DNA of 64,000 bases from Isurus oxyrinchus (taxonomy: Eukaryota). Positions 1,318-57,865 of the stretch are shown here, one piece after another. The translations under genes were made by a program, and so were the position numbers. Where the stretch lies: contig JANJGN010000034.1 of NCBI GenBank assembly GCA_026770705.1, positions 17,484,001 through 17,548,000 on the forward strand, given 5' to 3'. Below the pieces are notes generated by a model. The model had not been told where the DNA came from, did no database searches, and saw nothing but the letters and a program-made list of their open reading frames with translations. The stretch's first letter is position 1, and the number at the start of each line of letters is the position of its first letter.

Positions 1318-2357
1318 CGACCCTCCGACAGTGCAGCACCCCCTCAGTGTCGACCCACCAACAGCGCGGCAGCCCCTCAGTACTGACCCTCCAACAGCGT
1401 AGTGCCCCCTCAGTACTGACCCTCCGACAGCACGGAGACCCCCTCAGTACTGACCCTCCGACAGTGCGGCGCCCCCTCAGTACTGACCCTTCGACAGTGC
1501 GGCGCCCCCTCAGTGTCGACCCTCTGACAGCGCGGAGCCCCCTCAGTACTGACCCTCTGACAGCGCGGAGCCCCTGCAGTACTGACCCTCCGACAATGCG
1601 GACCCCCCCTTAGTATTGACCCTCCGACAGCGCGAAGACCCCTCAGTACTGACCCTCTGACAGCGCGGAGCCCTTCAGTACTGACCGTCCGACAATGCGG
1701 ACCCCCCTTAGTATTGACCATCCGACAGCGCGGAGCCCCCTCAGTACTGACCCTCCAACAGTGCGGAGACCCCTCAGTACTGACCCTCCAACAGTGCGGA
1801 GACCCCTCAGTACTGACCGTCCGACAGTGCGGCGCCCCCTGAGTACTGATCATCCGACAGCGCGGAGACCCCTCAGTACTGACCGTCCGACAGCGCGGAG
1901 CCCCCTCAGTACTGACCGTCCGACAGCGCGGAGCCCCCTCAGTACTGACCCTCCAACAGTGCGGAGACCCCTCAGTACTGACCCCTCCAACAGTGCGGAG
2001 ACCCCTCAGTACTGACCCTCCGACAGTGCGGCGCCCCCTGAGTACTGTCCATCCGACAGTGCGGCGCCCCTGAGTACAGACCCTCCGACCGCGCGGAGCC
2101 CCCTCAGTACTGACCCTCCGACCGCGCGGAGCCCCCTCAGTACTGACCCTCCGATAGCGCGGCACCCTCTCAGTGTCCACCCTCCGACCGCGCGGAGCCC
2201 CCTCAGTGCTGACCCTCCAACAGTGCGGCGCCCCCTCAGTACTGACCCTCCTCTCCGCGCGGAGCCCCCTCAGTACTGACCCTCCGACCGCGCGGAGCCC
2301 CCTCAGTACTGACCCTCCTCTCCGCGCGGAGCCCCCTCAGTACTGACCCTCCGACAA
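1318..2357. repeat. 33-bp GC-rich minisatellite (cagtactgaccctccgacagcgcggagccccct), ~31 copies
   Basis: Direct tandem repeat; translates as STDPPTARRPL-type repeats. Confidence 0.95.
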
Positions 2358-2819: not shown

Positions 2820-3000
2820 CTCTGACGCAAATATTCTAATGAGAGGATGTGGGAGGCGGGAAAGTCCCTGCTCTGTGTCCAATGAGAGGATGTGGGAGGC
2901 GGGAAAGTCCCTGCTCTGTGTCCAATGAGAGGATGTGGGAGGCGGGAAAGTCCCTGCTCTGTGTCCAATCAGAGGATGAGGGAGGAGGACGAGTGCGGTT
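2820..3000 (+). promoter_or_regulatory. Promoter with 43-bp tandem CCAAT / GC-box / NF-kB modules (kB sites 2858-2868, 2901-2911, 2944-2954)
   Basis: Unit gtCCAATgagaggatgtGGGAGGCGGGAAAGTCCCtgctctgt. GGGAAAGTCCC reverse-complements to GGGACTTTCCC, containing the canonical kB site. TGACGCAA lies at 2823-2830. Confidence 0.7.
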
Positions 3001-3150
3001 TGTGTTTTTCTCAGTCTGGCGGGTCCGTTATCTGCATCGGAGCGGAGTCGGTGAGAGCGAGGAGTCGCCGAGTTAATTTCTATATCACACCCAGAAAATC
3101 AACCGGGATCTCCCCCCACTGGACTCTCCCTGATCCCGGTGTGGACCCGA

Positions 3151-3171
3151 ATGGATGGAAAGGAGCTGCAG
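3151..3171 (+). other. Orphan first coding exon (MDGKELQ|gtaccg)
   Basis: Same sequence as exon 1 of copy B, behind a CCAAT/kB promoter. No exons 2-6 in this unit. Confidence 0.7.
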
Positions 3172-5241
3172 GTACCGGCAGAGCCTCAGAGCCGGGAGTG
3201 GTGGGGGTGGCGGGACCGTGCGTCCGGGTGTCGGGGGGACCGGGAATGGGGGCGGGGGGGGGGGGGGTTTGGATGCGGGTGAAATGTGGGGAAAAAGGAA
3301 ACTGAACTGATCCGCGATCCGGGGAAAACATTAAAAACATGACGGTCAATAAATACTGAGTTTTATAGAAGTTTCTCCCATTCACCAGTTGGGCAGCAGT
3401 AACACTGTGTTGGTCCGCTGTGATATTTCTCTAATATCTGTAAAGACTTGGAGAGACATGAACTGTGTGAGGGCCTGGGTAAGGGGATTCCACTCGCCCC
3501 ACAGGGGAGCTTGTGTCCCTGGGTTACTGGGGTGGAAACACCAGTCAGTGTTTGAGGGTGGGCATGGGCAATGGCAGCAGGAGAGCAGACCAGGGGATCA
3601 CTGTGTTAACACACTGTGGCCTTTGGTATGAATGAACACAGCAAGCTGATTCAGGAGGCCATTCAGAGATGCGGACTCTTCCCCAGCCTGTGAGAAAGAT
3701 ACAGGAACATGGGAATTTATTCCCTCATCAAGGAAGAACAGCAGCTAAAAAGTCCCAGAGATCCAGACTTGTTCCTCAACACCTCAACCTTAGGAAACAA
3801 TTCCCCAAATCCCTTTTAAACAATTTTTGGATTTATATAATTTAAATTGCCCAATATACATTGCACAGAAAACACACTCTTTGAGTGCTAAAGTTTGTCC
3901 TAATGTCTTCAGCAACTCATCTGCCCGGCACCTTCTGGAGCCTCACTCAGTGGATGTAGATGGGCTATTTGGCTATGACAGGCATCACAGTTAAGTTTCT
4001 TACCCAGGAGAGGCTCTGAGATTTCAAAAGGAGCGAATGGAGAGTGATCAGGAGCAGGAAATAAAAGAAATGTACAAAAACATTAAATATTCCACAAGCC
4101 AAATAGATGATAATTTAACAAATACATATCAACAGGGACTATAGGATTTTTCAGTTTAATGTTTCACACTTTCCCCTTGTAAACATGATAACTAACAATT
4201 ACCTGTCAGGCAATGTGGACACACCTTGTATTTTCGAAGATACCTGAGTTTTTAGATTCATAATAGAGACTGCTTCAATTATATATAAAGTATACACAGA
4301 CCCACAGGAGCAGCTGTACAAACCCTACAAACACACACGAGCAGTGTGAGCCTTACACACACACACATAAACGTGAGTAGTGAATGTAATATACAGCAAT
4401 ATTTCTAACTCATTCACACTCACACACCTCACTTGCACATGCACACACACATCGCACTCACACATACACACAGCTTGCTCACACAAACACAGCTCAGCCA
4501 CTTGCAGACTTTCCCTTGGGTGTTAGAACGGAGCATGTAAGCACAGGTTTGGCACAGCTCAGTGCCAGCGAGGTATCCGATCCTTCTGCTAGTCAGGACC
4601 TTTACCATTTGTGCCTTTTGCTAATCTTTGAGTGGTGAGGCTGCTCCTGAGGGAAGCGGGGGCTGGTCAAGAGGCCAGAATCGGAGGAGCATCGATTAGT
4701 TTACATAGATGAGGTTACAGAGAAAGAAGGTTGTAGGGGCTGGAGGAGGTTACAGAGATAGGGAGAGTTGCAGAGGCTGGAGGAGGTTTCTTCCAGCTCC
4801 TACAATCCCCTTATGTCAGTAACTTCCACAAGTCCCTACAACCCTCCCTCTCTCTGTAATCTCCTCCAGCCCGTACAACCTTCTTTCTCTGTAACCTCAT
4901 CTAGCCCCTACAACCCTCCAAAATCTCTGCGCTCCTTTCAGCCCCTTGAGCATCCCCCGTTTCCATTTCTCCACCATTGACGGACGTGGCTTCAGCTGCC
5001 TGGGGCCCTAAGCTCAGGAATTCCCTCCCTAATCCTCAATCACCCTTCCTTTAAGATGCCCCTTAAAAACTTCATTGTTTAACATTTTGGTCCCTACCGT
5101 CTGCTTTGGTGGGGCTGGATCAACTTTTGACTCATTTACAATACCCTGATGTGCATAGGGGCTTTTTTTTTGCAGTATTAATGGCGCTGAAAAATGCCAG
5201 TTGGTTTTTTTTGTTCTTTTTCCTGTATTAAAGGGGTGTAG

Positions 5242-7639: not shown

Positions 7640-7730
7640 CTGACGCAAATATTCTAATGAGCGGATATGGCAGGCTGTAGGTCCCGCTCTGTGTCCATTG
7701 AGAGGATGTGGGAGGCGGGACGAGTGCGGT
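7640..7730 (+). promoter_or_regulatory. Degenerate paralogous promoter (no intact kB site, CCAAT mutated to CCATT)
   Basis: Aligns with 2820-3000 but has fewer, mutated modules. Confidence 0.5.
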
Positions 7731-7879
7731 TTGTGTTTCTCTGTCTGGCGGGTCCGTTATCTGCATCGGAGCGGAGTCGGTGAGAGCGAGGAGTCGCCGG
7801 GTGAATTTCTATATCACACCCAGAAAATCAACTGGGATCTCCCCCCACTGGACTCTGCCTGATCCCGGTGTGGACCTGA

Positions 7880-7900
7880 ATGGATGGAAAGCAGCTGCAG
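7880..7900 (+). other. Orphan first coding exon (MDGKQLQ|gtaccg); nearest first exon upstream of copy A
   Basis: Paralog of 31936-31956. Confidence 0.7.
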
Positions 7901-12846: not shown

Positions 12847-15800
12847 GGACACAACTTGCAGAAGCTACTCCTGCTGCTTCTCAATGTTGTTGCTGCTGTT
12901 TCAGATAAGTGCTCTAACTGCTGGAACATTTCAGCACTGATCAAAGGGAGGGGGGAATCAGGAATTCATCTTGCTTTAAGGAGCTGTGTGTACTGCAAGT
13001 GGAGCCATTGAGGGAGTGGACACAGTAGGTTCACATCACACATCATGATCCTGAGAACTGAAAGGAAGGCATTTAATGTCTTTAGATTAACCCCTGTAAT
13101 GTAAACTGTGGGACACTGAACAACACTCGGTGACACTGGGATGGGTGACTGGTATCAAGTGGGCTTGGGATGGGGTCCTGAGCACTGGGATCGGAGTCTG
13201 GGACATTCCTGGGATCAAATAGAACTGGGAATTGTTTTGGAACTGGGACTTCAGGACTGGGGAATTGGGCTTTGATTCCTGGGAGTCCACCGATATTTGG
13301 GGGGAGGACCAAGGTCTGACATGTTAGTGATGGAGGGAGGTAAGGATCCATATTGCCTCAGCCCCTTTCAGACAATCAGGTTCTGCCTCCCCCTACATGG
13401 TGCACTCGTCCGTCACTGTTCCCCAATCTGTCCAAAACCACTTCCACATGCTCAGGTACCCCCTCCCCACCCATTCCTGTCTTTACGTTTCAGGGTCAGT
13501 TTTATGTTCCTGTGCTCCACCTCACATTGTGCTCCTCCAGCCTGTGATTTTTCTCCCAAGGGGAGGTGAGCAATATCCTGATGTGTTCTCCCAGCATGTG
13601 TACAAATGAAAAACATGTGATTCAAAGTGCTGTCCAGATGCTCTGTGCTTACAAATCTCTAGCACAAGCTGGTTTTAGTTGAAGAACCTTAATTCCTGAG
13701 CTTTGACCTTCCCACAGAAATGAAATCAGTGAGTTATTGATCAGTGTTTCTTGTAAATTGAGCATCACATTGTAACCATGTGAAACTTGGGGTGTATTGT
13801 ACCAGCAGGGAGGTTATATCTGTTGATAAATACTTTCAATCCTTTCCAGGTAACTTGCCTGTCCCAGTTTCTGGGTTCCTTGGGGAGCAGGTTGTGCTGC
13901 CCTGTACCCAGAAAGTGAATGTCCCAGTCTCTGGTAGTCTGGGAGACAGCCAAGGGTGAAAATTTACACAAGTTCATCGCTGGGAACGACGATTTGACAC
14001 AACAAGATCCACGATTCAGAAACAGAACAAAGCTGTTCAAAGATCAGCTGGGACGAGGCAACTGATCAGTTCTGATCTCTGACCTCAGGGAGTCAGACCA
14101 GAACCAGTATATATGTGACATTTACAAGAGGATAGCTGTGGGTTATGACTCGGAGCAAACTGATATCATCCATCTTTCTGTGACAGGTGAGAGATGTCTG
14201 CTTCAGGTATTCTGTATTTAATCTCTGTATGGGTTCGGTAATTCAGTGGTTATGTTACTAGACTAGTAATACAGAGGCCTGGACTAATAATCCAGAGGAT
14301 GAGAGTTCAAATCCCAGCATGGCACTTCCAGAATTTAAAATCAGTTTATTAAATAAAAATCTGGAAATATAAAGTTATTTGCAATAAAAGTGACCCTGAA
14401 GCTGTTGGATTGTTGTAAAACCCCAACTGGTTCATGAATGTCCCTTGTGGGAAGGAAACCTGCTGTCCTTACCCAGTCCCACCGTAACCTGGTTGGTTAA
14501 GCTGGCCTAGGAGGTCAGAGGGCAGTTAAAAATGAATTGATATCAAACCATTGGAAAGAAAGAATAGAATAAAACTGAATCATCACTGGCTTCACCCCGG
14601 GCATCGAATCAGGAAACAACACAGACAAACCCAGGCCAGTTGACATTGCAAAGTCCCCTCACTAACATCTGGGGACTGGTGTCCAAGTTGGGAGAGCTGT
14701 CTGGCAGAGTCATACTGACAAAATTGACCCTGAATCCCAGTCTCCTCTATCACCATCCCTGGGTATGTTCTGTCCAACTGGCAGGACAGTCCCACCAGAG
14801 ATGCAGTATACAGTCCGGAGGGAGTAGTCCTGGGGATCCTCAACATTGACTCTGAACCCCATGAAGTCTCACATCTCCAGGTCAAACCTCCTGCTGATTA
14901 TCACCTACTGCCTCCCTCAGCTGATGAATCAGTACTCCTCCATGTTGATCACCCCTTGGAGGAAGCAGTGAGGGTGGCAATGTACTCAGAATGTACTGAG
15001 TGGGGACAACACTGTCCATCACCAAGGGTGGGTCAGTAATACCATCACTGACCAAGCTGATGGGGCCCTGAAGGACAGAGCTGTCAAACTGGGTGATGGA
15101 AGGAGTTAATGGAGCTATCAAGCTGCACTCACTCTCCAGCAAAGAGCTCTGTCTGTCTCCAGATGTTGGGGTGCAGGAAGTGGGCCCCATCACACCTCTC
15201 AGGTTGCCTTTCCAAGACCCAGTGTACTTATTTTGATAGTGTATCCCAGTAGACCCAGGATCCTGTGGGGATTCTCTCCACAGGGGGATGTAGGCTGCTG
15301 GGACTGATCCTGCTCAGGGTAACTATGGAAATCTTCCATTCTACCCACCACAGTTAATGCAATCCTGTTGGATTTTTCACTCTGCCGATCCTGTTCCTGA
15401 TCCTTCCCGATCAGTTTGATCCGTGTCTCGTTCCTTTCTGGATGTGTTTCCCTAAAGCCCAATAGAGTCACTGAACATTTCTGCAGTTTGTTTCACACAC
15501 AGTGCTAAACACATGTTGTTTTCTTTAGAGCGACCTCAAACACCTGTACCGACCACGCCTGTACCAGGTAAATCTGTTTCTAAACTACTACATGTATTTT
15601 CAGCTCTTACATTTGAACATGCTGCAGAGACATTGGAAGGTTTGAAATGCTGTGTGATATTTCACCATAGAATGATTCTGTGAGCGTGAGTGGTGTGGGT
15701 GACTGTTACCTGTAACTGCCCCTGAAACTACCTGGAATTGTTATTTCTGTTTGAGTCTCACCTTCCTGTCTCTCAGATGCAAAACTCTGAGGATTCCTGC

Positions 15801-17980
15801 TTCCCACTAGCAGTCTGGAATTCTGTGTGGAAAGTCTTGGTACAACTATAACCGAACCCTCCTGTTGGGAAAATGACGGGATTGGGTGTAACACTGATTG
15901 AAGTCAGTGGAGAGTAATATTGAGCTAGGTGTAAATCTGTACTATGCCCAGGCCCGTGGTTTTCCTGATCCGCAAATTAGTTTAAAATTCCTGCTCTATT
16001 TCAGCGGACTGTTGGGTTTAATTGGAGGGAGTTTGCTGCTGGTCAGTGTCTAGTTATCTCGATTGGAAAGCATGTATCCATCACATTGTGGGACAGTGTG
16101 TGTGTGCAAAGAGCTGTGGGGTGGCCTGGTGTGTATGTGATTATTGGTATCTAACCTTCCTCCAGGACTAGAATTAATCAGAGATCTGTTTGTACTGGGG
16201 TTGGTTGTGAAACACTAGGTGCCGAAGGTCTCTGCTGTTAGTTTTGTTAGTGTGTCCCAGTCTGTTAATGTCTTCAATCTGTCCATAGATTCTGGGCTCT
16301 CGACTGGAGCAAGAGTGGGATTGGGAATTGGAATTCTCGTTTTTCTTGCTGCAGTTATTGGTTTTGTCATCCGAAAGTGGCAAAGACGGTGAGTTCTAGA
16401 ATGTTCCACGGCTCCCATTGTTAATTCCAATTTAGTTTTATTACATTTAGTGTTGCGGAAATGTTGTGTACAGTGATACACTTTGAGCTGTGTGGGATGT
16501 TTCAATGCTGCATTATCCAGTCACTTCCAGCTTGTAATCATCCTCTAGCTGCTGAACTGACGATGAGCAGGAATGTGCGGCTCCCTCTATCACACAGTTA
16601 ATAGACACTCGCCGAAACTCTGTACCAAAGAACTCACCAGCCGACATCCAAAATCCCTTTGTTGCCTCTTCTCTGATTTTTCTCCACCCTCTGATCCTTG
16701 CTCTGTTCCCCAGTCACTGACTCCATCCCCCTCTATCAGCTTCAGCTCATCGAAAACTCTGCTGCCCCACATCCTAACTTACTCCCAAGTCCTGTTCACC
16801 CTCACACCCTCTGCTCACTCACCTACATTCATACTCCCCGATGGCCTCAGCCCCTCCCTACCCCTTTTAACTCCTCCTGTGCCGACAGCCTTTGAGATGC
16901 CTGTGCTCATCTATCTGGCATCTTGACCATCCCCTGATTTCCATCATTCCATCATTGGCGGCCGTGACGTCAGCTGCCTGGGCCCTAAGCTCTGGAATTC
17001 CCTCCCTAAACCTCTCTTTTTCAGGCACTCTTTAAAATCTACCACCTTTTGATCAAGACTTTGGTCACCTGTCCTAATATCTCCTTATGTGGCTTACACA
17101 TTCCCCTGTTAGGCAGCTTTGGACAATAAGGATGCTATATAAATGCAAGTTGTTGCTCAATCTCAACACCCTGTGTCCCGGCCATCTGTGGTTTCCATCA
17201 CTGGGACAGCCATCTTGGATTTCCTTGTCTCCTTCAACATCCCCATCTCCCTGCCCACCTCTCGCCCACCCACTGGTGGGGAGGGGAAATTATTACAGAC
17301 ACTCTAACCCTGTCCGCTGACTCTCCATCACGATATTTCTGTGTTTGTTGACCTGTTTGGTCACTGCTGGATTGGGCTTGAGCACATCAAGGAATATCCT
17401 GTCCATCTGTGACTCCTCTCAATCCTTCAGGATCAGTCTGGAGAGTCCGGAAACTCCCAAACTCCTCGTGTCTGATCTGATCCCCATTATCTTCAGCTCA
17501 GTGTTAACTGAGATCCTCATCAATTCTTCTTCATCTCCAATATTGAGGCGAGCTGGCATTTTTCTATTTGTCTGGTTCCTCAGTCAGCACAGCTCCTGTG
17601 GAGTGTCCAGCTCTTGCCCATTGCCTCCCCTATGAGCCTCCTCTCCTCTACGCTCTGTGCTCCATCACCGTTCAGCTCCTGTGACCCATTTTCCAGCTGC
17701 TATTGGTACCCAGGATGTTGAGTGTAATTTTATTGATCTGTGCTCCTGAACGGCTCCTTTACACACGTGTCCAAAGTGTTGGATTCTTGTAATGTCACCT
17801 GAACTCTGCTGGTTTTTCTCTCCTAGCAATCGACACTTGAATAATCGAAATGAAGCATCTAATGATGTCCCTTTGACAGGGGTGAGCTGTCCAGGTGAAG
17901 CACGGGGCCTTGTGACAACAGCACCTGAGCATCAGGATGGAGAAGAAAACCTTGTGGGGAACAGGACTGTCCAGCACTGA
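12847..17980 (+). pseudogene. Pseudogene copy A of the IgV membrane-protein gene (exons 12847-12904, 13850-14186, 15529-15567, 16289-16388, 17827-17980)
   Basis: Near-identical to copy B, but the leader-exon donor is AT instead of GT (12905). The V exon has an 8-nt deletion (337 vs 345 nt) and TGG>TGA at 14063-14065. Its own promoter/exon 1 is deleted and its 3'UTR is truncated at about 18147. Confidence 0.9.
14235..14500 (+). mobile_element. tRNA-derived shark SINE in the intron after the V exon (also about 34932-35200 and 62760-63050)
   Basis: A-box-like tggttatgttactagactag and B-box gagttcaaatccc; present at the same position in all three gene copies. Confidence 0.65.
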
Positions 17981-18729
17981 CTGAGTTTCCCCAGCACTGA
18001 GCCTGTGTCAGGGAGGGGAAAATCAGCCCAGAATGGATGATTGTTACATATGAACGTATAACCCTCTGCGCTGTGGAGGTTCCCCCCCATCATCGCCACC
18101 GCTGCCCTGCGGGGCCCAGCCCTCTCCCCACCCCCGACGTCATGCAGAGACTATGGGATATTTCAGTTTAATGTCTCACACATTCCCCTTGTAAACACGA
18201 TAAATAACAATCACCTGTCAGGCAATGTGGACACACCTCATATTTTCGAAGATACCTAAGGTTTTAGATTCATAATAAAGACAGCTTCAATTATATATCA
18301 AGTATACACAGACCCACAGGAGCAGCAGTGCAAACCCTACAAACACACATTAGCAGTGTGAGCATTACAAACACACTCACACAAACGTGAGTAGTGAATG
18401 TTATAGACAGCAATATTTCTCTCTAACTCATTCACACACACACACCGCACTCGCACATGCACACACACATCGCACTCACACATTCACACACACACCTTGC
18501 TCACACAAACACAGCTCAGCCGCTTGCAGACTTGCCCACGGGTGTTAGAACAGAGCAGTTAAGCACAGGGTTGGCACAGCTCAGTGCCAGCGAGGTATCT
18601 GATCCCTCTGCTGGCCAGGACCTTCATCATTTGAGCCTTTTGCTAATCTTTGAGCGGTGGGCCAACCCCTGAGGGAAGCGGGTGATGGTCAAGAGGCCAG
18701 AATTGGAGGAGCATAGAGATCTTGCAGTG

Positions 18730-22046: not shown

Positions 22047-22215
22047 TCTGACGCAAATATTCTAATGATAGGATGCGGGAGGCGGGAAAGTCCCTGCTCT
22101 GTGTCCAATGAGGATTAGGGAGGTGGGAGATCCCGCTCTGTGTCCAATGAGAGGGTGTGGGAGTCGGGAAAGTCCCTGCTCTGTGTCCAATGAGAGGATG
22201 TGGGAGGAGGACGAG
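22047..22215 (+). promoter_or_regulatory. Paralogous promoter with three CCAAT boxes, kB sites at 22084-22094 and 22166-22176, and kB-like GGGAGATCCC at 22125-22134
   Basis: Direct motif reading; aligns with 2820-3000. Confidence 0.7.
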
Positions 22216-22370
22216 TGCGGTTTGTGATTTTCTGTCTGGCGGGTCCGTTATCCGCATCGGAGCGGAGTCGGCGAGAGCGAGGAGTCGCCGGGTGAATTTC
22301 TATATCACACCCAGAAAATCAACCGGGATCTCCCCCCACTGGACTCTCCCTGATCCCGGTGTGGACCCGA

Positions 22371-22391
22371 ATGGATAGAAAGGAGCTGCAG
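22371..22391 (+). other. Orphan first coding exon (MDRKELQ|gtaccg)
   Basis: Paralog of 31936-31956. Confidence 0.7.
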
Positions 22392-31742: not shown

Positions 31743-31800
31743 GGTCCTGCTCTGTGTCCAATGAGGATGAGGAGGGCGGGTCCTGCTCTGTTATTCTCTG
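31741..31800 (+). promoter_or_regulatory. Proximal promoter of copy B (one CCAAT, one GC box, no kB site), fused directly to the 33-bp minisatellite
   Basis: ccgacagcg|cgggtcctgctctgtgtCCAATgaggatgaggaGGGCGGG; the upstream part seen in the other units is missing. Confidence 0.6.
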
Positions 31801-31935
31801 TCTGGCGGGTCCTTTAACTTCACCGGAGCGGAGTCGGTGAGAGCGGGGACTCGCCCGGTAAATTTCTCTATCACACCCGGAAAATCAACCGGGATCTCCC
31901 CCACTGGACTCTCCCTGATCCCGGTGTGGACCTGA

Positions 31936-34900
31936 ATGGATGGAAAGGAGCTGCAGGTACCGGCAGAGCCTCAGAGTGGGGGGACCGTGGGTCCGGGTGT
32001 CGGGGGGACCGGGAATGGGGGGGGTTTGGATGCGGGTGAAATGTTGGGAAAAAGGAAACTGAACTGATCCGCGATCTGGGGAAAACATTAAAAAATGGAA
32101 CTGGGATCGGGAGGGAGAAACTCAGCAGGTCTGACAGCGTCTGTGGAGACGAAAACAGTTAATGTTTCCAGTCCGAATAACTCTTCAACAGAGCGAAGGA
32201 GAAATAGAAGAGGTGAAATATAAGCTGGTTTGGGGGGGGGGGGGGGGGGGGAAGGGTGGTGGCGAGAGCAGTGTGGGGGAGGGGGGTGGTGGTGTTGGTT
32301 GTAGGGACAAGCAGGCAGTGATCGGATCAGATAATCAAAAGATGTCACAGGCAAAAGAAAAAAGAGGTGTTAAAGGTGGTGATATTACCTAAACGAATGT
32401 GCTAATTAAGAATGGATGGCAGGACACACAAGGTACAGCTCTAGTGGGGTTGGGGTGGAATAAGACCAACAGGGCATTAAAGGTATAGATTTAAAAATAA
32501 TGGAAATAGGTGGGAAAAGGAAAATCTATATAAATTATTGGAAAAAACAGAAAGGGGGTGGGGATGGAGGTGGGAGTTCAAGATCTAAAGTTGTTGAATT
32601 CAGTATTCAGTCCGGAAGGCTGTAAAGTGCCTAGTCGGAAGATGAGGTGTTTTTCCTCCAGATTGCATTGAGTTTCACTGGAACAATGCAGCAGATCAAG
32701 GACAATCATGTGGGCAAGAGAGCAGGGTGGAGTGTTAAAATGGCAAGCGACAGGGAGGTTTGGGTCATTCTTGTGGACAGACCGCAGGTGTTCTGCAAAG
32801 CAGTCACCCAGTTTGCGTCTGGTCTCTCCGATGTAGAGGAGACCGCATTGGGAGCAACGAATGCAGTAGACTAAGTTGGGGGAAATGCAAGTAAAAGGCT
32901 GTTTCATGTGAAAGGAGTATTTGGGTCCTTGGACGGTGAGGAGAGAGGAAGTGAAGGGGCAGGTGGTGCATCTTTTGCGTGGGCATGGGGAGGTGCCATA
33001 GGTGGGGGTTGAGGAGTAGGGAGTGATGGAGGAGTGGACCAGGGTGTCCCGGAGGGAGCGATCACTACGGAATGCCGATAAGGGGGGTGAAGGGAAGATG
33101 TGTTTGGTGTTGGCATCATGCTGGAGTTGGCGGAAATGGCGGAGGATGATCCTTTGAAAGCGGAGACTGGTGGGGTGATAAGTGAGGACAAGGGGGACCC
33201 TATCATGTTTCTGGGAGGGAGGAGAAGGCGTGAAGGCGGATGCGTAGGAGATGGGCTGGACACAGCTGAGGGCCCTGTCAACGACCGTGAGTGACCTGTT
33301 GAAATGGGATTCAGCCTCAGTGCGCATGCTCCTCTCCGGGGCCCGGCCCCTTTCTCCAGCTCCCGGGCGCATGCGCGGCACCAGTCAATCTTCACCCGTG
33401 GGCAGGCCATAAACCCGCGCATGCGCCTATCCCGGCCCAGTCCCATCATCAACCTGATCAGCAAGTGAACCTGTTGTAAAGGGGGTAACTGTGTTTTCTT
33501 GTTGCAGGGACACAACTTACAGAAGCTACTCCTGCTGCTTCTCAATGTTGTTGCTGCTGTTTCAGGTAAGTGCTCTAACTGCTGGAACATTTCAGCAGTG
33601 ATCAAAGGGAGGGGGGAAACAGGAATTCATCTTGCTTTAAGGAGCTGTGTGTACTGCAAGTGGAGCCATTGAGGGAGTGGACACAGTAGGTTCACATCAC
33701 ACATCATGATCCTGAGAACTGAAAGGAAGGCAGTTAATGTCTTTAGATTAACCCCTGTGATGTAAACTGTGGGACACTGAACAACACTCGGTGACACTGG
33801 GATGGGTGACTGGTATCAAGTGGGCTTGGGATGGGGTCCTGAGCACTGGGATCAGGAGTCTGGGACATTCCTGGGATCAAATAGAACTGGGAATTGTTTT
33901 GGAACTGGGAATTGTTTTGGAGTAGGGACTTCAGGACTGGGGAATTGGGCTTTGATTCCTGGGAGTGGGCAGAGTCCACCGATATTGGGGGGGAGGACCA
34001 AGGTCTGACATGTTAGTGATGGAGGGAGGTAAGGATCCATATTGCCTCAGCCCCTTTCAGACAATCAGGTTCTGCCTCCCCCTACACGGTGCACTCGTCC
34101 GTCACTGTTCCCCAATCTGTCCAAAACCACTTCCACATGCTCAGGTACCCCCTCCCCACCCATTCCTGTCTTTACGTTTCAGGGTCAGTTTTATGTTCCT
34201 GTGCTCCACCTCACATTGTGCTCCTCCAGCCTGTGATTTTTCTCCCAAGGGGAGGTGACCAATATCCAGATGTGTTCTCCCAGCATGTGTACAAATGAAA
34301 AACATGTGATTCAAAGTGCTGTCCAACTGCTCTGTGCTTACAAATCTCCAGCACAAGCTGGTTTTAGTTGAAGGCCCTTAATTCCTGAGCTTTATCCTTC
34401 CCACAGAAATGAAAGCAGTGAGTTATTGATCAGTGTTCCTTGTAAACTGAGCATCACATTGTAAGCAGGTGAAACATGGGTTGTATTGTACCAGCAGGGA
34501 GGTTATATCTGTTGATAAATACTTTCAATCCTTTCCAGGTAACTTGCCTGTCCCAGTTTCTGGGTTCCTTGGGGAGCAGGTTGTGCTGCCCTGTACCTAC
34601 AAAGTGAATGTCCCAGTCTCTGATTTACTGGTAGTCTGGGAGACAGCCAAGGGTGAAATTTTACAGATGTTCATCGCTGGGAATGAGGATTTGACAGAAC
34701 AAGATCCACGATTCAGAAACAGAACAAACCTGTTCAAAGATCAACTGGGACAAGGCAACTGGTCAGTTCTGATCTCTGACCTCAGGGAGTCAGACCAGAA
34801 CCAGTATATATGTGACATTTACAAGAGGATAGCTGTGGGTTATGACTCGGAGCAAACTGATATCATCCATCTTTCTGTGACAGGTGAGAGGTTTCTGCTT

Positions 34901-37900
34901 CAGGTATTCTGTATTTCATCTCTGTATGGGTTCGGTAATTCAGTGGTTATGTTACTAGACTAGTAATACAGAGGCCTGGACTAATAATCCAGAGGTTGAG
35001 AGTTCAAATCCCAGCATGGCACTTCCAGAATTTAAAATCAGTTTATTAAATAAAAATCTGGAAATATAAAGTTAGTTGCAATAAAAGTGACCCTGAAGCT
35101 GTTGGATTGTTGTAAAACCCCAACTGGTTCATGAATGTCCCTTGAGGGAAGGAAACCTGCTGTCCTTACCCAGTCCCACCGTAAACTGGTTGGTTCAGCT
35201 GGCCTAGGAGGTCAGAGGGCAGTTAAAAATGAATTGATATCAAACCATTGGAAAGAAAGAATAGAATAAAACTGAATCATCACTGGCTTCACCCCGGGCA
35301 TCGAATCAGGAAACAACACAGACAAACCCAGGCCAGTTGACATTGCAAAGTCCCCTCAGTAACATCTGGGGACTGGTGTCCAAGTTGGGAGAGCTGTCTG
35401 GCAGAGTCATACTGACAGGATTGACCCTGAATCCCAGTCTCCTCTGTCACCATCCCTGGGTATGTTCTGTCCAACTGGCAGGACAGTCCCACCAGAGATG
35501 CAGTATACAGTCCGGAGGGAGTAGTCCTGGGGATCCTCAACATTGACTCTGAACCCCATGAAGTCTCACATCTCCAGGTCAAACCTCCTGCTGATTATCA
35601 CCTACTGCCTCCCTCAGCTGATGAATCAGTACTCCTCCATGTTGATCACCCCTTGGAGGAAGCAGTGAGGGTGGCAAGGACACAGAATGTACTGAGTGGG
35701 GACAACACTGTCCATCACCAAGGTATGGGTCAGTAATACCATCACTGACCAAGCTGATGGGGCCCTGAAGGACAGAGCTGTCAAACTGGGTGATGGAAGG
35801 AGTTAATGAAGCTATCAAGCTGCACTCACTCTCCAGCAAAGAGCTCTGTCTGTCTTCAGATGTTGGGGTGCAGGAGGTGGGCCCCATCACACTTCTCAGG
35901 TTGCCTTTCCAAGACCCAGTGTACTTATCTTGATAGTGTATCCCAATATACCCAAGATCCTGTGGGGATTCTCTCCACAGGGGGATGTAGGCTGCTGGGA
36001 CTGATCCTGCTCAGGGTAACTCTGGAAAACTTCCATTCTACCCACCACAGTTAATGCAATCCTTTTGGATTTTTCACTCTGCCGACCCTGTTCCTGATCC
36101 TTCCCGATCAGTTTGATCCGAGTCTCGTTCCTCCCTGGATGTGTTTCCCTAATGCCCGATAGAGTCTTTGAACATTTCTGCAGTTTGTTTCACACACAAT
36201 ACTAAACACATGATGTTTTCTTTAGAGCGACCTCAAACACCTGTACCGACCACGCCTGTACCAGGTAAATCTGTTTCTAAACTACTCCATGTATTTTCAG
36301 CTCTTACATTTGAACATGCTGCAGAGACAGGGAGTAACATTGGAAGGTTTGAAATGCTGTGTGATATTTCACCATAGAATGATTCTGTGAGAGTGAGTGG
36401 TGTGGGTGACTGTTACCTGTAACTGCCCCTGAAACTACCTGGAATTGTTATTTGTGTTTGAATCTCACCTTCCTGTCTCTCAGATACAAAACTCTGAGGA
36501 TTCCTGCTTCCCACTAGCAGTCTGGAATTCTGTGTGGAAAGTGTTGGTACAATTATAACCGAACCCTCCTGTTGGGAAAATGACGGGATTGGGTGTAACA
36601 CTGATTGAAGTCAGTGGAGAGTAATATTGACCTAGGTGTAAATCTGTACTATGCCCAGGCCCGTGGTTTTCCTGATCCACAAATTAGTTTAAAATTCCTG
36701 CTCTATTGCAGCGGACTGTTGGGTTTAATTGGAGGGAGTTTGCTGCTGGTCAGTGTCCAGTTATCTCGATTGGAAAGCATGTATCCATCACATTGTGGGA
36801 CAGTGTGTGTGTGCAAAGAGCTGTGGGGTGGCCTGGTGTGTATGTGATTATTGGTATCTAACCTTCCTCCAGGACTAGAATTAATCAGAGATCTGTTTGT
36901 ACTGGGGTTGGTTGTGAAACACTAGGTGCTGAAGGTCTCTGCTGTTAGTTTTGTTAGTGTGTCCCAGTCTGTTAATGTCTTCAATCTGTCCATAGAATCT
37001 GGGCTCTCGACTGGAGCAAGAGTGGGATTGGGAATTGGAATTCTCGTTTTTCTTGCTGCAGTTATTGGTTTTGTCATCCGAAAGTGGCAAAGACGGTGAG
37101 TTCTAGAATGTTCCACGGCTCCCATTGTTAATTCCAATTTAGTTTTATTACATTTAGTGTTGCGGAAATGTTGTGTACAGTGATACACTTTGAGCTGTGT
37201 GGGATGTTTCAATGCTGCATTATCCAGTCACTTCCAGCTTGTAATCATCCTCTAGCTGCTGAACTGACGATGAGCAGGAATGTGCGGCTCCCTCTATCAC
37301 ACAGTTAATAGACACTCGCCGAATCTCTGTACCAAAGAACTCACCAGCCGACATCCAAAATCCCCTTGTTGCCTCTCCTCTGGTTTTTCTCCACCCTCTG
37401 ATCCTTGCTCTGTTCCCCAGTCACTGACTCCATCCCCCTCTGTCAGCTTCAGCTCATCGAAAACTCTGCTGCCCCACATCCTAACTTACCCCAAGTCCTG
37501 TTCACCCTCACACCCTCTGCTCACTCACCTACATTCATCCCCCTGTTCAAACTCCCCGATGGCCTCAGCCCCCCCCTACCCCTTTTAACTCCTCCTGGGC
37601 CGACAGCCTTTGAGATGCCTGTGCTCATCTATCTGGCCTCTTGACCATCCCCTGATTTCCATCACTCCATCATTGGCGGCCGTGACGTCAGCTGCCTGGG
37701 CCCTAAGCTCTGGAATTCCCTCCCTAAACCTCTCTTTTTCAGGCACTCTTTAAAATCTACCACCTTTTGATCAAGACTTTGGTCACCTGTCCTAATATCT
37801 CCTTATGTGGCTTACACATTCCCCTGTTAGGCAGCTTTGGACAATAAGGATGCTATATAAATGCAAGTTGTTGCTCAATCTCAGCACCCTGTGTCCCGGC

Positions 37901-38687
37901 CATCTGTGGTTTCCATCACTGGGACAGCCATCTTGGATTTCCTTGTCTCCTTCAACATCCCCATCTCCCTGCCCACCTCTCGCCCACCCACCGGTGGGGA
38001 GGGGAACTTATTACAGACACTCTAACCCTGTCCGCTGACTCTCCATCACGATATTTCTGTGTTTGTTGACCTGTTTGGTCACTGCTGGATTGGGCTTGAG
38101 CACATCAAGGAATATCCTGTCCATCTGTGGCTCCTCTCAATCCTTCAGGATCAGTCTGGAGAGTCCGGAAACTCCCAACCTCCTCGTGTCTGATCTGATC
38201 CCCATTATCTTCAGCTCAGTGTTAACTGAGATCCTCATCAATTCTTCTTTATCTCCAATATTGAGGCGAGCTGGCATTTTTCTATTTGTCTGGTTCCTCA
38301 GTCAGCACAGCTCCTGTGGAGTGTCCAGCTCTTGCCCATTGCCTCCCCTATGAGCCTCCTCTCCTCTACGCTCTGTGCTCCATCACCGTGCAGCTCCTGT
38401 GACCCATTTTCCAGCTGCTATTGGTACCCAGGATGTTGAGCATAATTTTATTGGTCTGTGCTCCTGAACACACTTGTCCAAAGTGTTGGATTCTTTTAAT
38501 GTCACCTGAACTCTGCTGGTTTTTCTCTCCCAGGAATCGACACTCGAACAATCGAAATGAAGCATCTAATGATGTCCCTTTGACAGGGGTGAGCTGTCCA
38601 GGTGAAGCACGGGGCCTTGTGACAACAGCACCTGAGCATCAGGATGGAGAAGAAAACCTTGTGGGGAACGGGACTGTCCAGCACTGA
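31936..38687 (+). CDS. Intact 6-exon gene (copy B) for a 238-aa single-IgV type I membrane protein (B7/butyrophilin/MOG-like V domain). Exons 31936-31956, 33508-33565, 34539-34883, 36226-36264, 36996-37095, 38534-38687
   Basis: All introns are GT-AG and phases join (0,1,1,1,2) into one 717-nt ORF: MDGKELQ|GHNLQKLLLLLLNVVAAVS (signal peptide)|IgV with VVLPC..W..QDPRFRNRTNLFKDQLGQGNWSVLISDLRESDQNQYIC|ERPQTPVPTTPVP stalk|TM VGLGIGILVFLAAVIGFVI + RKWQR|cytoplasmic tail ending GTVQH*. Exon 1 is the least certain exon. Confidence 0.85.
32110..33290 (-). mobile_element. 5'-truncated Penelope element (GIY-YIG domain + 3' pLTR) in intron 1 of copy B
   Basis: ORF 32578-33381 contains NLVYCIRCSQCGLLYIGETRRKLGDCFAEH...HFN...LIFRLGTLQPSGLN. 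Confidence 0.9.
33321..33426. promoter_or_regulatory. NRF1-type GCGCATGCGC motif cluster in intron 1 (paralog at about 12660-12766)
   Basis: Two perfect GCGCATGCGC palindromes (33367-33376, 33417-33426) plus TGCGCATGCT in a CpG-rich patch. Confidence 0.45.
34539..34883 (+). CDS. IgV-domain exon of copy B
   Basis: 345-nt phase 1-1 exon (ctttccag|...acag|gtgag). Has the B-strand Cys, C-strand Trp, D-x-x-x-Y-x-C motif and N-glycan sequons NRT and NWS. Confidence 0.92.
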
Positions 38688-39333
38688 CTGAGTTTCCCCA
38701 GCACTGAGCCTGTGTCAGGGAGGGGAAAATCAGCCCAGAATGGATGATTGTTACATATGAACGTATAACCCTCTGCGCTGTGGAGGTTCCCCCCCCTCAT
38801 CGCCACCACTGCCCTGCAGGGTCCAGCCCTCTCCCCACCCCCAACGACATGCAGAGGATCTCTCCCGACACGCCAGGGCAGCCCACCGAGGCAGCTGTCC
38901 CCCACCCCCACAATGAGGCACTGAGGTCTAAGTACTGAGGATGTATTAGAGTTTGGGGGCAGCCGCCACAAAGGCACAATGGGGAAAGGTCGCTGTCTAA
39001 GACCTTTCAGCTACAGTGCACCGAGGGGCTGGGAACTGTATAGACCCCTCGGGCTGTACGACTCAGATGGAAAGTATACAGTGAACACTAAATATATCAT
39101 AATTGTATTGAAGCACCTCAGAGTGTTAACATGATGTATGGCGATAACGTGAATAGCTTTGCACTGTCTGACTCTCTGTAATGACCATATTGAAATGTCT
39201 GTAATATTGATTCTATTGAAACACCTCATGACCTGTGTGGAAAACTGGAATATGATTGCATTTTGTGTGATGGCCATTTTGAAATGGCTTTTATAATGTT
39301 CTTTCAAATATTTTATGAAGTTAAATTGTTCCA

Positions 39334-44360: not shown

Positions 44361-44849
44361 GGGGTCCCCAACACCCTCACACAGCACCTTTCTATGCAAC
44401 TGCAGAAGGTACAACACCTGCCCCTTTACTTCCCCCCTCCTCACCGTCCAAGGGCCCAAACACTCCTGCTACTTCCCTCAATTTGGTCCAGTGCATTCAC
44501 TCAGTTTAATATCCTCAGTAAAAGACAGGACCTCTGACAATGCAGCTCTCCCTCAGCAATGCAGTAGGACCCTCACCATTTATTACAGCCTCAGGTGACT
44601 GGAGTGGGGTTTGAACCCACAACCTACTCACTCTGAGGTGAGAGTGTTACCCACTGAGTCATGGTTGACATGTGGATACCTGTCGCCCTCTGTTTTCCCC
44701 ACATAAACATCCATTCTTCAGCTGTGAGTTTTGACAGTGAGGGTTCAATCCTCAATGTGGACCCTCATTCGGGGTAAGTGAGGGTTGGAACGTTTGACCT
44801 GTTGCGTTGTCGCCCTTTGTGTGTGACCACGTTACCTGTGGGAGGGGCC

Positions 44850-45790
44850 TTTGGGCTGTGGGTGGGGCCTCCGGGCAGTGGGTGGGGCCGCCGCTCCTTG
44901 GGCGCGGCCGGTGCGCAGTGGGCGGGGCCGCCGCTCGAGTGGATCGAGTCTGTCAAATGAGTCATGAGACTGATCCGCGAATGTGGGCGTGGTTGGACTG
45001 TCCCATTGTGGCAGTGAGGTGGGGGGGGGGGAATAATGAACTAGCATCTGTCAGGAAAGTTCTGTAGAAAATTCATACGGACTCGAACCGTCAATGGTTT
45101 CTCTCTTCACAGACTGTACTAGAACTGCTGAATATTTCCAGGAATTTCTGAGAGAGATCTAACCCCCGCTAGTGGGAGGAGAGATCGGGAATGATCAATC
45201 CCCCCCCTGTCTGAATGGAGCCGGACACAGGCCCCGCCTCTTTCCTATTTCGGGTCGGTGAGAGTGTTTCTCCTGTTGACCCCCTGTCCCCGGCTCTGAG
45301 CGGATCCCTCTCTCGGGGAATGGACGGAAAGGAGCTGCAGGTCTTGTCAGTGTCTCACACCCGAGGGGTAACTTTCTTTTATCTTCACCGGGATTTAACT
45401 CTTTATCCGGGGGGGTAATGGATGGAAAATGAGCTGCGGGTCCCTCAGTGAAGACCGGGAGCGGGAGTCGGGAGCGGGGTCCGTGCGGGTCCTCCTGCTG
45501 ATACCGGATTAAACTGTCAGGATTGGAGCGGGAACAGAATCAACAAAAAAACGACATCGAGACAAACGAAATGGCCGCAGGAGAGGTGCTGGGCGGGGTG
45601 AAGACTGATTGACAGGCCGGCGCGGTAACTGATTGGATCTGGTTTGTGCTGGGCGGGGCAAGGACTGATTGACAGGAAGACCCGGCAGCTGATTGGATCT
45701 GGTTTGTAATAGGGCGGGGTGAAGGCTGATTGACAGGGCGACCCGGCCGCTTATTGGCTTTCACTCACCTGTGGGTGGGGAGTTCACGTC
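44850..45790. promoter_or_regulatory. CpG-rich promoter-like region with GC boxes, TGAGTCA, a diverged exon-1 paralog and three ~60-bp GGGCGGGG/ATTGG modules (45589-45760)
   Basis: High CpG density and repeated GC and inverted CCAAT boxes. Confidence 0.5.
45320..45340 (+). other. Diverged first-exon paralog (MDGKELQ|gtcttg); candidate exon 1 for copy C
   Basis: ATG GAC GGA AAG GAG CTG CAG|GT has a synonymous change relative to the other copies although its flanks are diverged. A degenerate duplicate (ATG GAT GGA AAA TGA) starts at 45418. Confidence 0.55.
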
Positions 45791-57119: not shown

Positions 57120-57257
57120 CCAATGGAGATGGAGAACCCGCCTGGCGCTGCAACTCTGTCCAATGAGAGGATGTGGGAGGCGGGAGGTCCCTGCTCTGTG
57201 TCCAATGAGGATGACGAGGGCGGGTCCTGCTCTGTTATTCTCTGTCTGGCGGGTCCA
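57120..57257 (+). promoter_or_regulatory. Paralogous CCAAT/GC promoter upstream of copy C, cut off before exon 1 by Penelope sequence
   Basis: Three CCAAT boxes. Homology to the other promoters ends at tctggcgggtcc, where Penelope sequence begins. Confidence 0.55.
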
Positions 57258-57865
57258 TTGAAATGGCAGGCGACGGGGAGGTTTGGGTCATTCTTGCGGA
57301 CAGAACACAGATGTTCTGCAAAGTGGTCGCCCAGTTTACGTTTGGTCTCTCCAATGTAGAGGAGACGGCATTGGGAGCAACGAATGCAGCCATTTCAACA
57401 CTTCGCCGTGCTCTCTTGCCCACATGTCTGTCCTTGGCTTGCTGCATTGTTCCAGTAAAGCCCAACGCAAGTTGGAGGAACAGCACCTCATCTTCCGACT
57501 AGGCACTTTACAGTCTTCCGGACTGCATATTGAATTCAACAACTTTAGGTCTTGACCTCCCTCCTCCATCCCCACCCCCTTTCTGTTTCTTCCCCTTTCC
57601 TTTTGTTTTTTTCCAATAAATTATATAGATTTTTCTTTTTCCCACCTATTTCCATTATTTTTAAATATTTTTAAATCTTTTATGCTCTCCCCGCCCCCAC
57701 TAGAGCTATACCTTGAGTGCCCTACCATCCATTCTTAATTGGCACATTCGCTTAGATAATATCACCAACTTCAACACCTCTGTGTTCTGTTGTCTGTGAC
57801 ATCTTTTGATGATCTGCTTCTATCACTGCTTGTTTGTCCCTACAACCACACCACCCCCCTCCACT

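What the first reader, a model, noticed from the sequence alone, without database searches (positions are those of the whole stretch)
2836..2990. A VNTR whose repeat unit is a complete CCAAT + Sp1 + NF-kB module, with copy number differing between paralogous promoters
Seen: the 43-bp unit gtCCAATgagaggatgtGGGAGGCGGGAAAGTCCCtgctctgt. Perfect kB sites number 3 here, 0 at 7.7 kb, 2 plus one kB-like site at 22.1 kb, 0 at the promoter of intact copy B, and 1 degenerate (GGGAGGTCCC) at 57.2 kb. Established: GGGACTTTCC is the canonical Ig-kappa/HIV kB element, CCAAT binds NF-Y and GC boxes bind Sp factors. Inference: repeat expansion and contraction could act as a rheostat for inflammatory inducibility. 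The kB-rich promoters are the orphans and the intact gene's own promoter lacks kB sites, so the orphans may act as inducible enhancers or alternative promoters.
Basis: partly seen in the sequence, partly recalled or inferred. Interest (0 to 1): 0.7.

Follow-up and report, generated by a model that had tools for sequence, protein, structure and literature searches.

The report
Recent kB repeat in orphan promoter
In a shark, a 43-base repeat in front of a left-over first exon of an immune-type gene family carries a perfect match to the NF-kB binding site that related repeats mostly lack, and RNA shows the exon spliced onward, likely into a dead gene copy, so the site is probably a recent by-product rather than a tuned inflammation dial.

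Summary
The array is real: three 43-bp units plus a partial one, three exact GGGACTTTCC sites (minus strand). It is the amplified proximal promoter module of a shark single-IgV B7/CD276-like gene family, not a dispersed repeat: 75 of 75 exact unit-pattern hits in the 4.98-Gb genome lie at copies of the same first exon. Across 186 units from 18 arrays, CCAAT is kept in 165 and GGCGGGA in 120, but the exact kB site in only 6; the family form is GGGAGGTCCC, so the 'degenerate' site is the likely ancestor and the perfect site a recent gain. The 'Sp1' box lacks GGGCGG here and reads as an E2F-type GGCGGGAAA overlapping the kB site. The cassette is an orphan made by one ~8.75-kb gene-body deletion. 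RNA contigs matching this exon (0 differences) and the kB-less orphan at 7.8 kb both splice straight to the IgV exon, as expected for pseudogene A, whose exon-2 donor is dead; that product is out of frame. So 'alternative promoter' is supported; 'rheostat' is not: intact genes' arrays have no kB site, and the longest arrays (up to 92 units) lie in gene-free satellite. Variation between individuals and NF-kB binding are untested.

The parts
2836..2990 (+). Minisatellite array of orphan promoter P1: units 2836-2878, 2879-2921, 2922-2964 and a partial fourth; units 2 and 3 identical, unit 1 differs at one base (CTAAT)
2859..2868 (-). Exact GGGACTTTCC (repeated at 2902-2911 and 2945-2954); kB identity is by recalled consensus, binding untested
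2855..2863 (+). E2F-type GGCGGGAAA overlapping the kB site (repeated at 2898 and 2941); the 10-mer GGCGGGAAAG also stands in a published E2F1 EMSA probe
2879..2883 (+). CCAAT box (also 2922-2926, 2965-2969), spaced 43 bp; best-kept motif of the family (165 of 186 units)
2995..3171 (+). Exon 1 of P1 (5' end not mapped), CpG-rich, ATG at 3151, codes MDGKELQ, donor GT at 3172; holds a 9-bp hairpin stem with GGGATCTCCC at 3105
3172..3340 (+). Remnant of intron 1 and the deletion junction to the gene's downstream flank (copy-B coordinates about 32097 joined to 40847); same junction in P2, P3 and the orphan 17 kb beyond the window end
1319..2356 (+). Unrelated 33-bp minisatellite upstream, part of the duplicated unit
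7654..7900 (+). Orphan promoter and exon 1, P2: 2 units, no kB site; an RNA contig with its pattern (4 differences, no gap) splices to the IgV exon
12847..17981 (+). Pseudogene copy A: no exon 1 of its own, exon-2 donor reads AT at 12905, IgV exon (13850-14186) has an 8-base deletion and a TGA
22062..22391 (+). Orphan promoter and exon 1, P3: 4 units, 2 exact kB sites and 1 consensus match; would splice in frame to exon 2 of copy B (not seen in RNA)
31758..38688 (+). Intact copy B (exons ..31956, 33508-33565, 34539-34883, 36226-36264, 36996-37095, 38534-38688; signal peptide, IgV, stalk, TM, tail); the 33-bp array is joined directly to the last promoter unit, the upstream promoter part is gone
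57120..57259 (+). Promoter of copy C with the family-type unit (GGGAGGTCCC); exon 1 cut off by a retroelement-like insertion

Best explanation
The array is a tandem expansion of the CCAAT + GGCGGGA module that lies in front of exon 1 of a shark single-IgV B7-like gene family, and it likely drives basal transcription through NF-Y (with an E2F- or GC-binding partner), while the perfect kB site is likely a recent chance gain in one unit that the expansion then copied. Shown: the unit occurs only at this first exon; CCAAT is the kept motif; the exact kB site is confined to two sister orphans and one satellite unit; the orphan lost its gene body by deletion; an exon 1 identical to this one is spliced to an IgV exon. 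Inferred: the acceptor is pseudogene A, the product (29 codons to a stop) is non-productive, the factors are NF-Y/E2F, and any NF-kB response of P1 is real chemistry without a selected job.
For: Unit patterns: 36 of 36 and 39 of 39 exact hits at exon-1 cassettes on C34 and C26 (15 cassettes). Motif counts in 186 units: CCAAT 165, GGCGGGA 120, kB consensus 25, exact kB 6. The family core is one mismatch from the kB consensus and 6 of 159 single-step changes create a match; 18 of 151 units in gene-free satellite on C26 match the consensus. GGCGGGAAAGTCCCTG occurs 4 times in 4.98 Gb, all in P1 and P3. P1 units are near-identical while P1, P2 and P3 differ by 3.0-4.2%: a young expansion. In two DNA runs of a second organism (B) the contig through unit 1 stops matching at 2861, where the kB-making bases begin (weak). 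RNA contigs in X1: record 3 matches 3075-3174 with 0 differences (only P1 does so among 15 exon-1 copies compared), record 2 has P2's pattern, and both go on into the IgV exon start found only in this cluster; exon-2 skipping fits copy A's dead donor. Arrays of intact B, D, E and of the three 15.8-Mb genes: 0 consensus sites in 21 units.
Against: kB-consensus sites are concentrated in the P1-type arrays (7 of 9 units of P1, P3 and the split array at 79 kb, by two different spellings), more than in C26 units, although the units share descent. Three perfect sites within 300 bp of the start codon could well bind NF-kB. An RNA contig in X7 (another sample) with a P1-type exon 1 (3 differences, 1 gap) splices to an exon 2, so a P1-type exon feeds a whole gene in some haplotype or hidden copy; a 100-N gap lies 162 bp before the window. 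Only about 20 bases of the IgV exon are seen, shared by copies A, B, D and E. The RNA label of the runs is the tool's guess (the splice joint argues for RNA). No binding, chromatin or stimulation data.
Confidence: 0.6

Rival explanations
1. Co-opted inducible alternative promoter or enhancer: the kB-bearing orphans (above all P3, 11 kb upstream of exon 2 of intact B) make an intact B7-like gene NF-kB-inducible, making up for B's truncated promoter; unit number would set the gain.
For: P3 exon 1 joined to B's exons 2-6 gives a full open frame; orphans are used as first exons; B and D lost the upstream promoter; orphan-plus-intact-gene layout recurs at 79-92 kb; X7 contig with P1-type exon 1 spliced to exon 2; promoter VNTRs with kB sites are on record (PMC8096271, passage).
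Against: No contig with P3's signature spliced to exon 2 was listed (tables cut); the orphan in front of D has no exact site and its array is split by a 1.9-kb insertion; no sign of the exact site in organism B (weak); kB number does not follow unit number; for a hTERT VNTR with predicted kB sites reporter output showed no clear link to repeat number (PMC2915984, passage).
Confidence: 0.2
2. NF-Y/E2F proliferation-type module: the A-rich variant matters because it makes a full E2F site (TTTCCCGCC on the minus strand); the kB match is incidental or competes with E2F at the overlapping bases.
For: GGCGGGA in 120 of 186 units against 25 kB-consensus matches; GCGGGAAA only in 4 units of P1/P3; same 10-mer as a published E2F1 probe (PMC2175517, passage).
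Against: One of the five exact-kB units has lost the E2F core (22144 unit); no expression data by cell state; a surface IgV protein is not a typical cell-cycle gene (recalled).
Confidence: 0.12
3. Inert repeat: the array has no regulatory effect and the spliced RNA comes from read-through from upstream.
For: RNA?-labelled runs also cover 2360-2720 and intron-like sequence at 3336-4200 through paralogous contigs; same cassettes sit in satellite deserts; the start site is not mapped.
Against: CpG obs/exp 0.74 at P1 against 0.39 for the window and 0.14 in intron B; CCAAT kept better than neighbouring positions of the unit; no upstream exon or gene of the family in 30 kb before the window.
Confidence: 0.06
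4. The cassette is the U3-R part of an LTR, like human LTR12.
For: Same architecture as LTR12 U3: about 41-nt tandem units with CCAAT, variable in number (PMC11853044, passages); copies on two contigs.
Against: Only 15 cassettes found; it ends in the gene's own coding micro-exon MDGKELQ, which named shark proteins share and which family members with other promoters also carry; a diverged 'unit zero' with CCAAT precedes the array in several promoters, pointing to growth from a native two-CCAAT promoter.
Confidence: 0.02

Closest known systems
Human LTR12/ERV9 U3 enhancer (PMC11853044, passages read)
   Same: Variable number of about 41-nt tandem units, each with a conserved CCAAT and a G-rich motif, directly upstream of a transcription start; works as an alternative promoter, also for immune genes (GBP2/5).
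   Different: Retroviral, about 5,000 copies, GATA/MZF1 partners, NF-Y binding shown. Here: 15 cassettes, grown from a host promoter, partner motif E2F/kB-like, nothing shown to bind.
Promoter VNTRs with factor sites, HRAS1 minisatellite binding rel/NF-kB (passage and reference title in PMC8096271; the original paper was not held)
   Same: A minisatellite whose unit holds a kB-type site, with the idea that copy number tunes transcription.
   Different: Those are allelic VNTRs with binding data; here variation is shown between paralogues only and the exact site is a minority variant.
HIV-1C LTR kB-site duplications (search listing and abstract starts only: PMC7006833, 10.1101/2020.02.20.958892)
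   Same: Gain of kB sites by local duplication in a proximal promoter, 0-4 copies compared.
   Different: Viral, under direct selection; here a host orphan promoter whose seen product is out of frame.
B7 family IgV proteins CD276 (B7-H3), VTCN1 (B7-H4), PD-L1
   Same: Best solved-structure hits of the IgV exon (E 5e-13, 2e-12, 3e-11); Pfam V-set; type I membrane layout.
   Different: Single IgV without IgC; all 56 hits at E <= 1e-15 are shark proteins with mixed automatic names; orthology to any mammalian B7 gene was not tested.

Membership tests
VNTR (allelic) | Head-to-tail units of 7-100 bp | tested here: met
   Period 43, 3.4 copies, 98%
VNTR (allelic) | Copy number differs between alleles or individuals at one locus | tested here: inconclusive
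   Only fragmented contigs; none spans the array, 81 pieces not shown, 1 of 4 runs laid nothing
Promoter minisatellite of a gene family | Always directly 5' of the same first exon; number differs between paralogues | tested here: met
   75 of 75 exact hits at exon-1 cassettes; 1 to 92 units
NF-kB response element | Match to GGGRNWYYCC (consensus recalled) | tested here: met
   3 exact GGGACTTTCC in P1
NF-kB response element | Conserved across paralogues or relatives | tested here: not met
   6 of 186 units exact, 25 of 186 consensus; organism B contigs stop matching at 2861 (weak)
NF-kB response element | Rel binding and stimulus-dependent activation | not testable with these tools
   Needs EMSA/ChIP/reporters
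Sp1 GC box | GGGCGG core / KGGGCGGRRY (recalled) | tested here: not met
   0 of 4 P1 units; core in 62 of 186 family units, full 10-mer in 6
NF-Y CCAAT promoter | CCAAT with favourable flanks, tandem spacing, close to exon 1 | tested here: met
   3 boxes 43 bp apart, last one 186 bp before the ATG; 165 of 186 units; binding untested
Alternative promoter / first exon | Exon spliced to downstream exons in RNA | tested here: met
   X1 records 2 and 3, X7 record 26, assigned
Alternative promoter / first exon | Transcription starts at this cassette | not testable with these tools
   Contigs cannot show a start
LTR12-like retroviral LTR | Dispersed high copy number independent of host exons | tested here: not met
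   15 cassettes, all with the host micro-exon
LTR12-like retroviral LTR | TG..CA ends, target-site duplication, primer-binding site | not tested
   No systematic search was run
B7 family | B7-type IgV, signal peptide, TM | tested here: met
B7 family | Orthology or receptor binding | not tested
   No tree or synteny test

The most novel reading that the evidence does not exclude
Birth of inducibility in the act: after a deletion left orphan first exons upstream of intact B7-like genes, two small changes in one promoter unit made an overlapping E2F/NF-kB switch, tandem expansion multiplied it, and the orphan at 22 kb now serves as an in-frame, inflammation-inducible first exon of intact gene B, with unit number setting the gain.
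Probability: 0.15. Interest if true: 0.65.

Novelty: new member of a known kind. Interest (0 to 1): 0.35.

Why it matters
As it most likely stands, it is a tidy natural series (0, 1, 2, 3 kB sites on one promoter backbone, with the ancestral unit and unconstrained arrays alongside) that shows how a textbook site can arise and multiply in a promoter minisatellite without evident selection, and how orphan first exons get rewired in a fast-evolving shark immune-type cluster for which our searches found no paper. If the orphan at 22 kb proved to make gene B inducible, it would be a directly testable case of new immune regulation built from a promoter repeat rather than from a transposon.

Tried and rejected
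Genome-wide dispersed repeat: rejected (DNA searches give lower bounds, the exact patterns are scans). Genes driven by the five C26 cassettes: none seen; 40-70 kb around each is 93-100% tandem repeat, larger distances not read. Allele typing from public runs: failed, contigs only; X13 laid nothing, which is no evidence. No RNA holder is on record as RNA: 'no RNA holder listed'. Contig depths for P1- and P2-type exon 1 in X1 (10.6 and 7.5) were not used as expression levels. A Fisher test of kB matches, P1-type against C26 units (p = 3e-5), was set aside because units share descent. A two-exon reading of 3000-3171 (apparent donor at 3052) was dropped: it would need a 44-base intron and contigs run through it. 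ATGs inside the last repeat unit as start codon: dropped, named homologues start MDGKELQ. Pfam found nothing for 5 of 6 frames given. Literature: 0 papers for shark+promoter+minisatellite+NF-kappaB, 0 for cartilaginous fish+B7 family+butyrophilin+nurse shark, none of 20 listed (of 84) on this family; a search for an E2F/kB overlap precedent gave nothing usable in the listing. The library lacks most subscription papers; no supplements were read. Earlier findings: none near or alike.

Full report
Observation. The window lies in a 4.98-Gb genome. At 2836-2990 there are three 43-bp units and a partial fourth. GGAAAGTCCC, the reverse complement of GGGACTTTCC, occurs five times in the window, three here and two at 22.1 kb, where 0.28 are expected. 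The first unit has CTAAT, not CCAAT. The GC box has no GGGCGG core in any of the four units; it reads GGCGGGAAA and overlaps the kB site by five bases. The same ten bases, GGCGGGAAAG, stand in an E2F1 EMSA probe in PMC2175517 (passage). The consensus patterns for kB and Sp1 that I used are recalled.

The genes. The IgV exon at 34539-34883 is a Pfam V-set; its best solved relatives are CD276, VTCN1 and PD-L1; all 56 protein hits at E <= 1e-15 are from sharks, the closest at 86-90% from lamniform species. Copy B has six exons and a full open frame: MDGKELQ, signal peptide, IgV, stalk, TM, tail. Named homologues start MDGKELQG or MDGKQLQG (P0017, P0026), which fixes the ATG in exon 1 (3151 in this cassette). 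Eighteen exon matches at 63% identity or more to this IgV lie on the same contig, at 7.6, 15.7-15.9 and 17.5 Mb, and one partial match on another contig. In the 17.5-Mb cluster B, E and D are intact, A is a pseudogene, and C lacks the ATG-bearing end of exon 1.

What the array is. Two exact unit patterns hit 36 and 39 times in the genome, all at copies of this exon 1 on C34 and C26; 15 cassettes were found. Ten other places in the family with the same coding micro-exon have unrelated upstream sequence, so the array belongs to one promoter lineage. I split 18 array segments into 186 units: CCAAT in 165, GGCGGGA in 120, a kB-consensus match in 25, the exact site in 6. The majority form at the kB position is GGGAGGTCCC, one mismatch from the consensus; 6 of 159 single-step changes turn it into a match. 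On C26 the cassettes sit in 93-100% tandem-repeat DNA with no gene seen in 40-70 kb; their arrays have 4 to 92 units, 18 of 151 units match the consensus and one has the exact site. The arrays of intact B, D, E (3 units) and of the three 15.8-Mb genes (18 units) have none. The 16-mer with the full E2F/kB overlap occurs four times in the genome, all in P1 and P3. P1's units are near-identical while the orphans differ by 3.0-4.2%, so P1's array is a young expansion or homogenisation. In two DNA runs of a second organism the contig that covers unit 1 stops matching at 2861 (records 1 and 9), where the bases that make the site begin; this is a weak hint, as 83% and 65% of those runs were read and the tables were cut. 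Inference: the site is derived and recent.

The orphans. P1, P2, P3 and a fourth cassette at 81 kb hold exon 1 and about 165 bp of intron 1, joined at one shared junction to sequence that lies downstream of gene B's last exon: one deletion of about 8.75 kb, then duplication. B and D lost the upstream part of their promoter: the 33-bp array abuts the last unit. Copy A has no exon 1 of its own, its exon-2 donor reads AT, and its IgV exon has an 8-base deletion and a stop.

RNA. Only assembled contigs were on hand, and 'RNA' is the tool's guess. In X1, record 3 matches 3075-3174 with no difference and record 2 with four differences and no gap; two contigs end at 3174 and go on with the first bases of the IgV exon. 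Among 15 exon-1 copies compared, only P1 gives 0 differences and only P2 gives 4 without a gap. That IgV start is found in A, B, D and E, not in the five 15.7-15.9-Mb copies printed. Skipping exon 2 is what A's dead donor predicts, and A is the next gene body. The join is out of frame and stops after 29 codons. So both a three-site and a no-site orphan are used as first exons, most likely of a pseudogene. Against a simple picture: in X7, another sample, a contig with a P1-type exon 1 (3 differences, 1 gap over 2995-3172) goes on into an exon 2, and has a retroelement-like loose end at 2995; no such gene is in the stretches I read, but a 100-N gap lies 162 bp before the window. P3's exon 1 would join B's exon 2 in frame; no listed contig shows it, and 51 pieces were not shown.

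How it likely works. Shown: position, motif conservation, CpG enrichment (0.74 against 0.39), splicing. Inferred: tandem CCAAT boxes 43 bp apart recruit NF-Y and keep the cassette open and transcribed, with an E2F- or GC-binding partner; the array grows and shrinks by slippage or unequal exchange, as the satellite-buried arrays show; one unit gained an exact kB site and was copied. P1 may well answer to NF-kB, but its seen product is non-productive and the site is missing where selection should be strongest. I give this 0.6, a co-opted inducible alternative promoter or enhancer 0.2, an E2F-centred role 0.12, an inert repeat 0.06, an LTR origin 0.02.

Comparison. It works like the LTR12 U3 enhancer (about 41-nt units with CCAAT, 5-17 copies, alternative promoter of immune genes; PMC11853044, passages) but fails membership: few copies, host micro-exon. 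Promoter VNTRs with kB sites are known (PMC8096271, passage citing HRAS1), and repeat number need not track output (PMC2915984, passage). kB gain by duplication is known from HIV-1C (listing and abstract starts). Earlier AI notes report other promoter-near minisatellites and a 41-base CCAAT array in this genome (not checked), so such arrays may be common here. No paper on this promoter or family was found.

Verdict. A real promoter minisatellite, new member of a known kind; alternative-promoter use supported, Sp1 label not met, rheostat unsupported and untested. Interest 0.35.

Noticed in passing
window 3103-3141 and all exon-1 copies: A 9-bp inverted repeat (hairpin, -16.4 kcal/mol for 3095-3145) closes 9 bases before the ATG; its 5' arm holds a kB-consensus match that is kept in nearly all paralogues, intact genes included. 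No shuffle control was run.
   Followed up: partly
window 57259; G000:C34 about 17.550 and 17.563-17.565 Mb; G000:C26 12.637 and 10.161 Mb: Penelope-like or SINE-like insertions (label from the GIY-YIG/RT-like frames, recalled) fall inside or just behind this promoter array at five separate places, and an RNA contig shows a sixth at 2995; open chromatin may attract them.
   Followed up: partly
G000:C26:10.16, 11.16, 12.55, 12.63, 12.84 Mb: Five promoter-plus-exon-1 cassettes, all on the + strand, buried in satellite DNA on another contig, arrays up to 3.9 kb; in those read in full the 33-bp array and the upstream flank follow the exon instead of preceding it, as if copied from a circular or tandem intermediate.
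   Followed up: partly
G000:C34:15.71-15.90 Mb: About a dozen family members in an inverted arrangement share the micro-exon MDGKELQ but have at least three unrelated upstream sequences; three have two IgV exons; promoter swapping seems frequent.
   Followed up: partly
P0018: A basking-shark protein model fuses this IgV-TM protein to a KRAB/SET PRDM7-like protein; probably an annotation read-through.
   Followed up: no
window 45586-45757 and 44836-44934: A 60-bp repeat with ATTGG/GGGCGGGG motifs and a 20-bp GC-box repeat: possibly another CCAAT/GC promoter built from tandem units, of an unidentified gene.
   Followed up: no
162-261 bases before the window start: A 100-N assembly gap at the left edge of the cluster; further copies may be hidden.
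   Followed up: no
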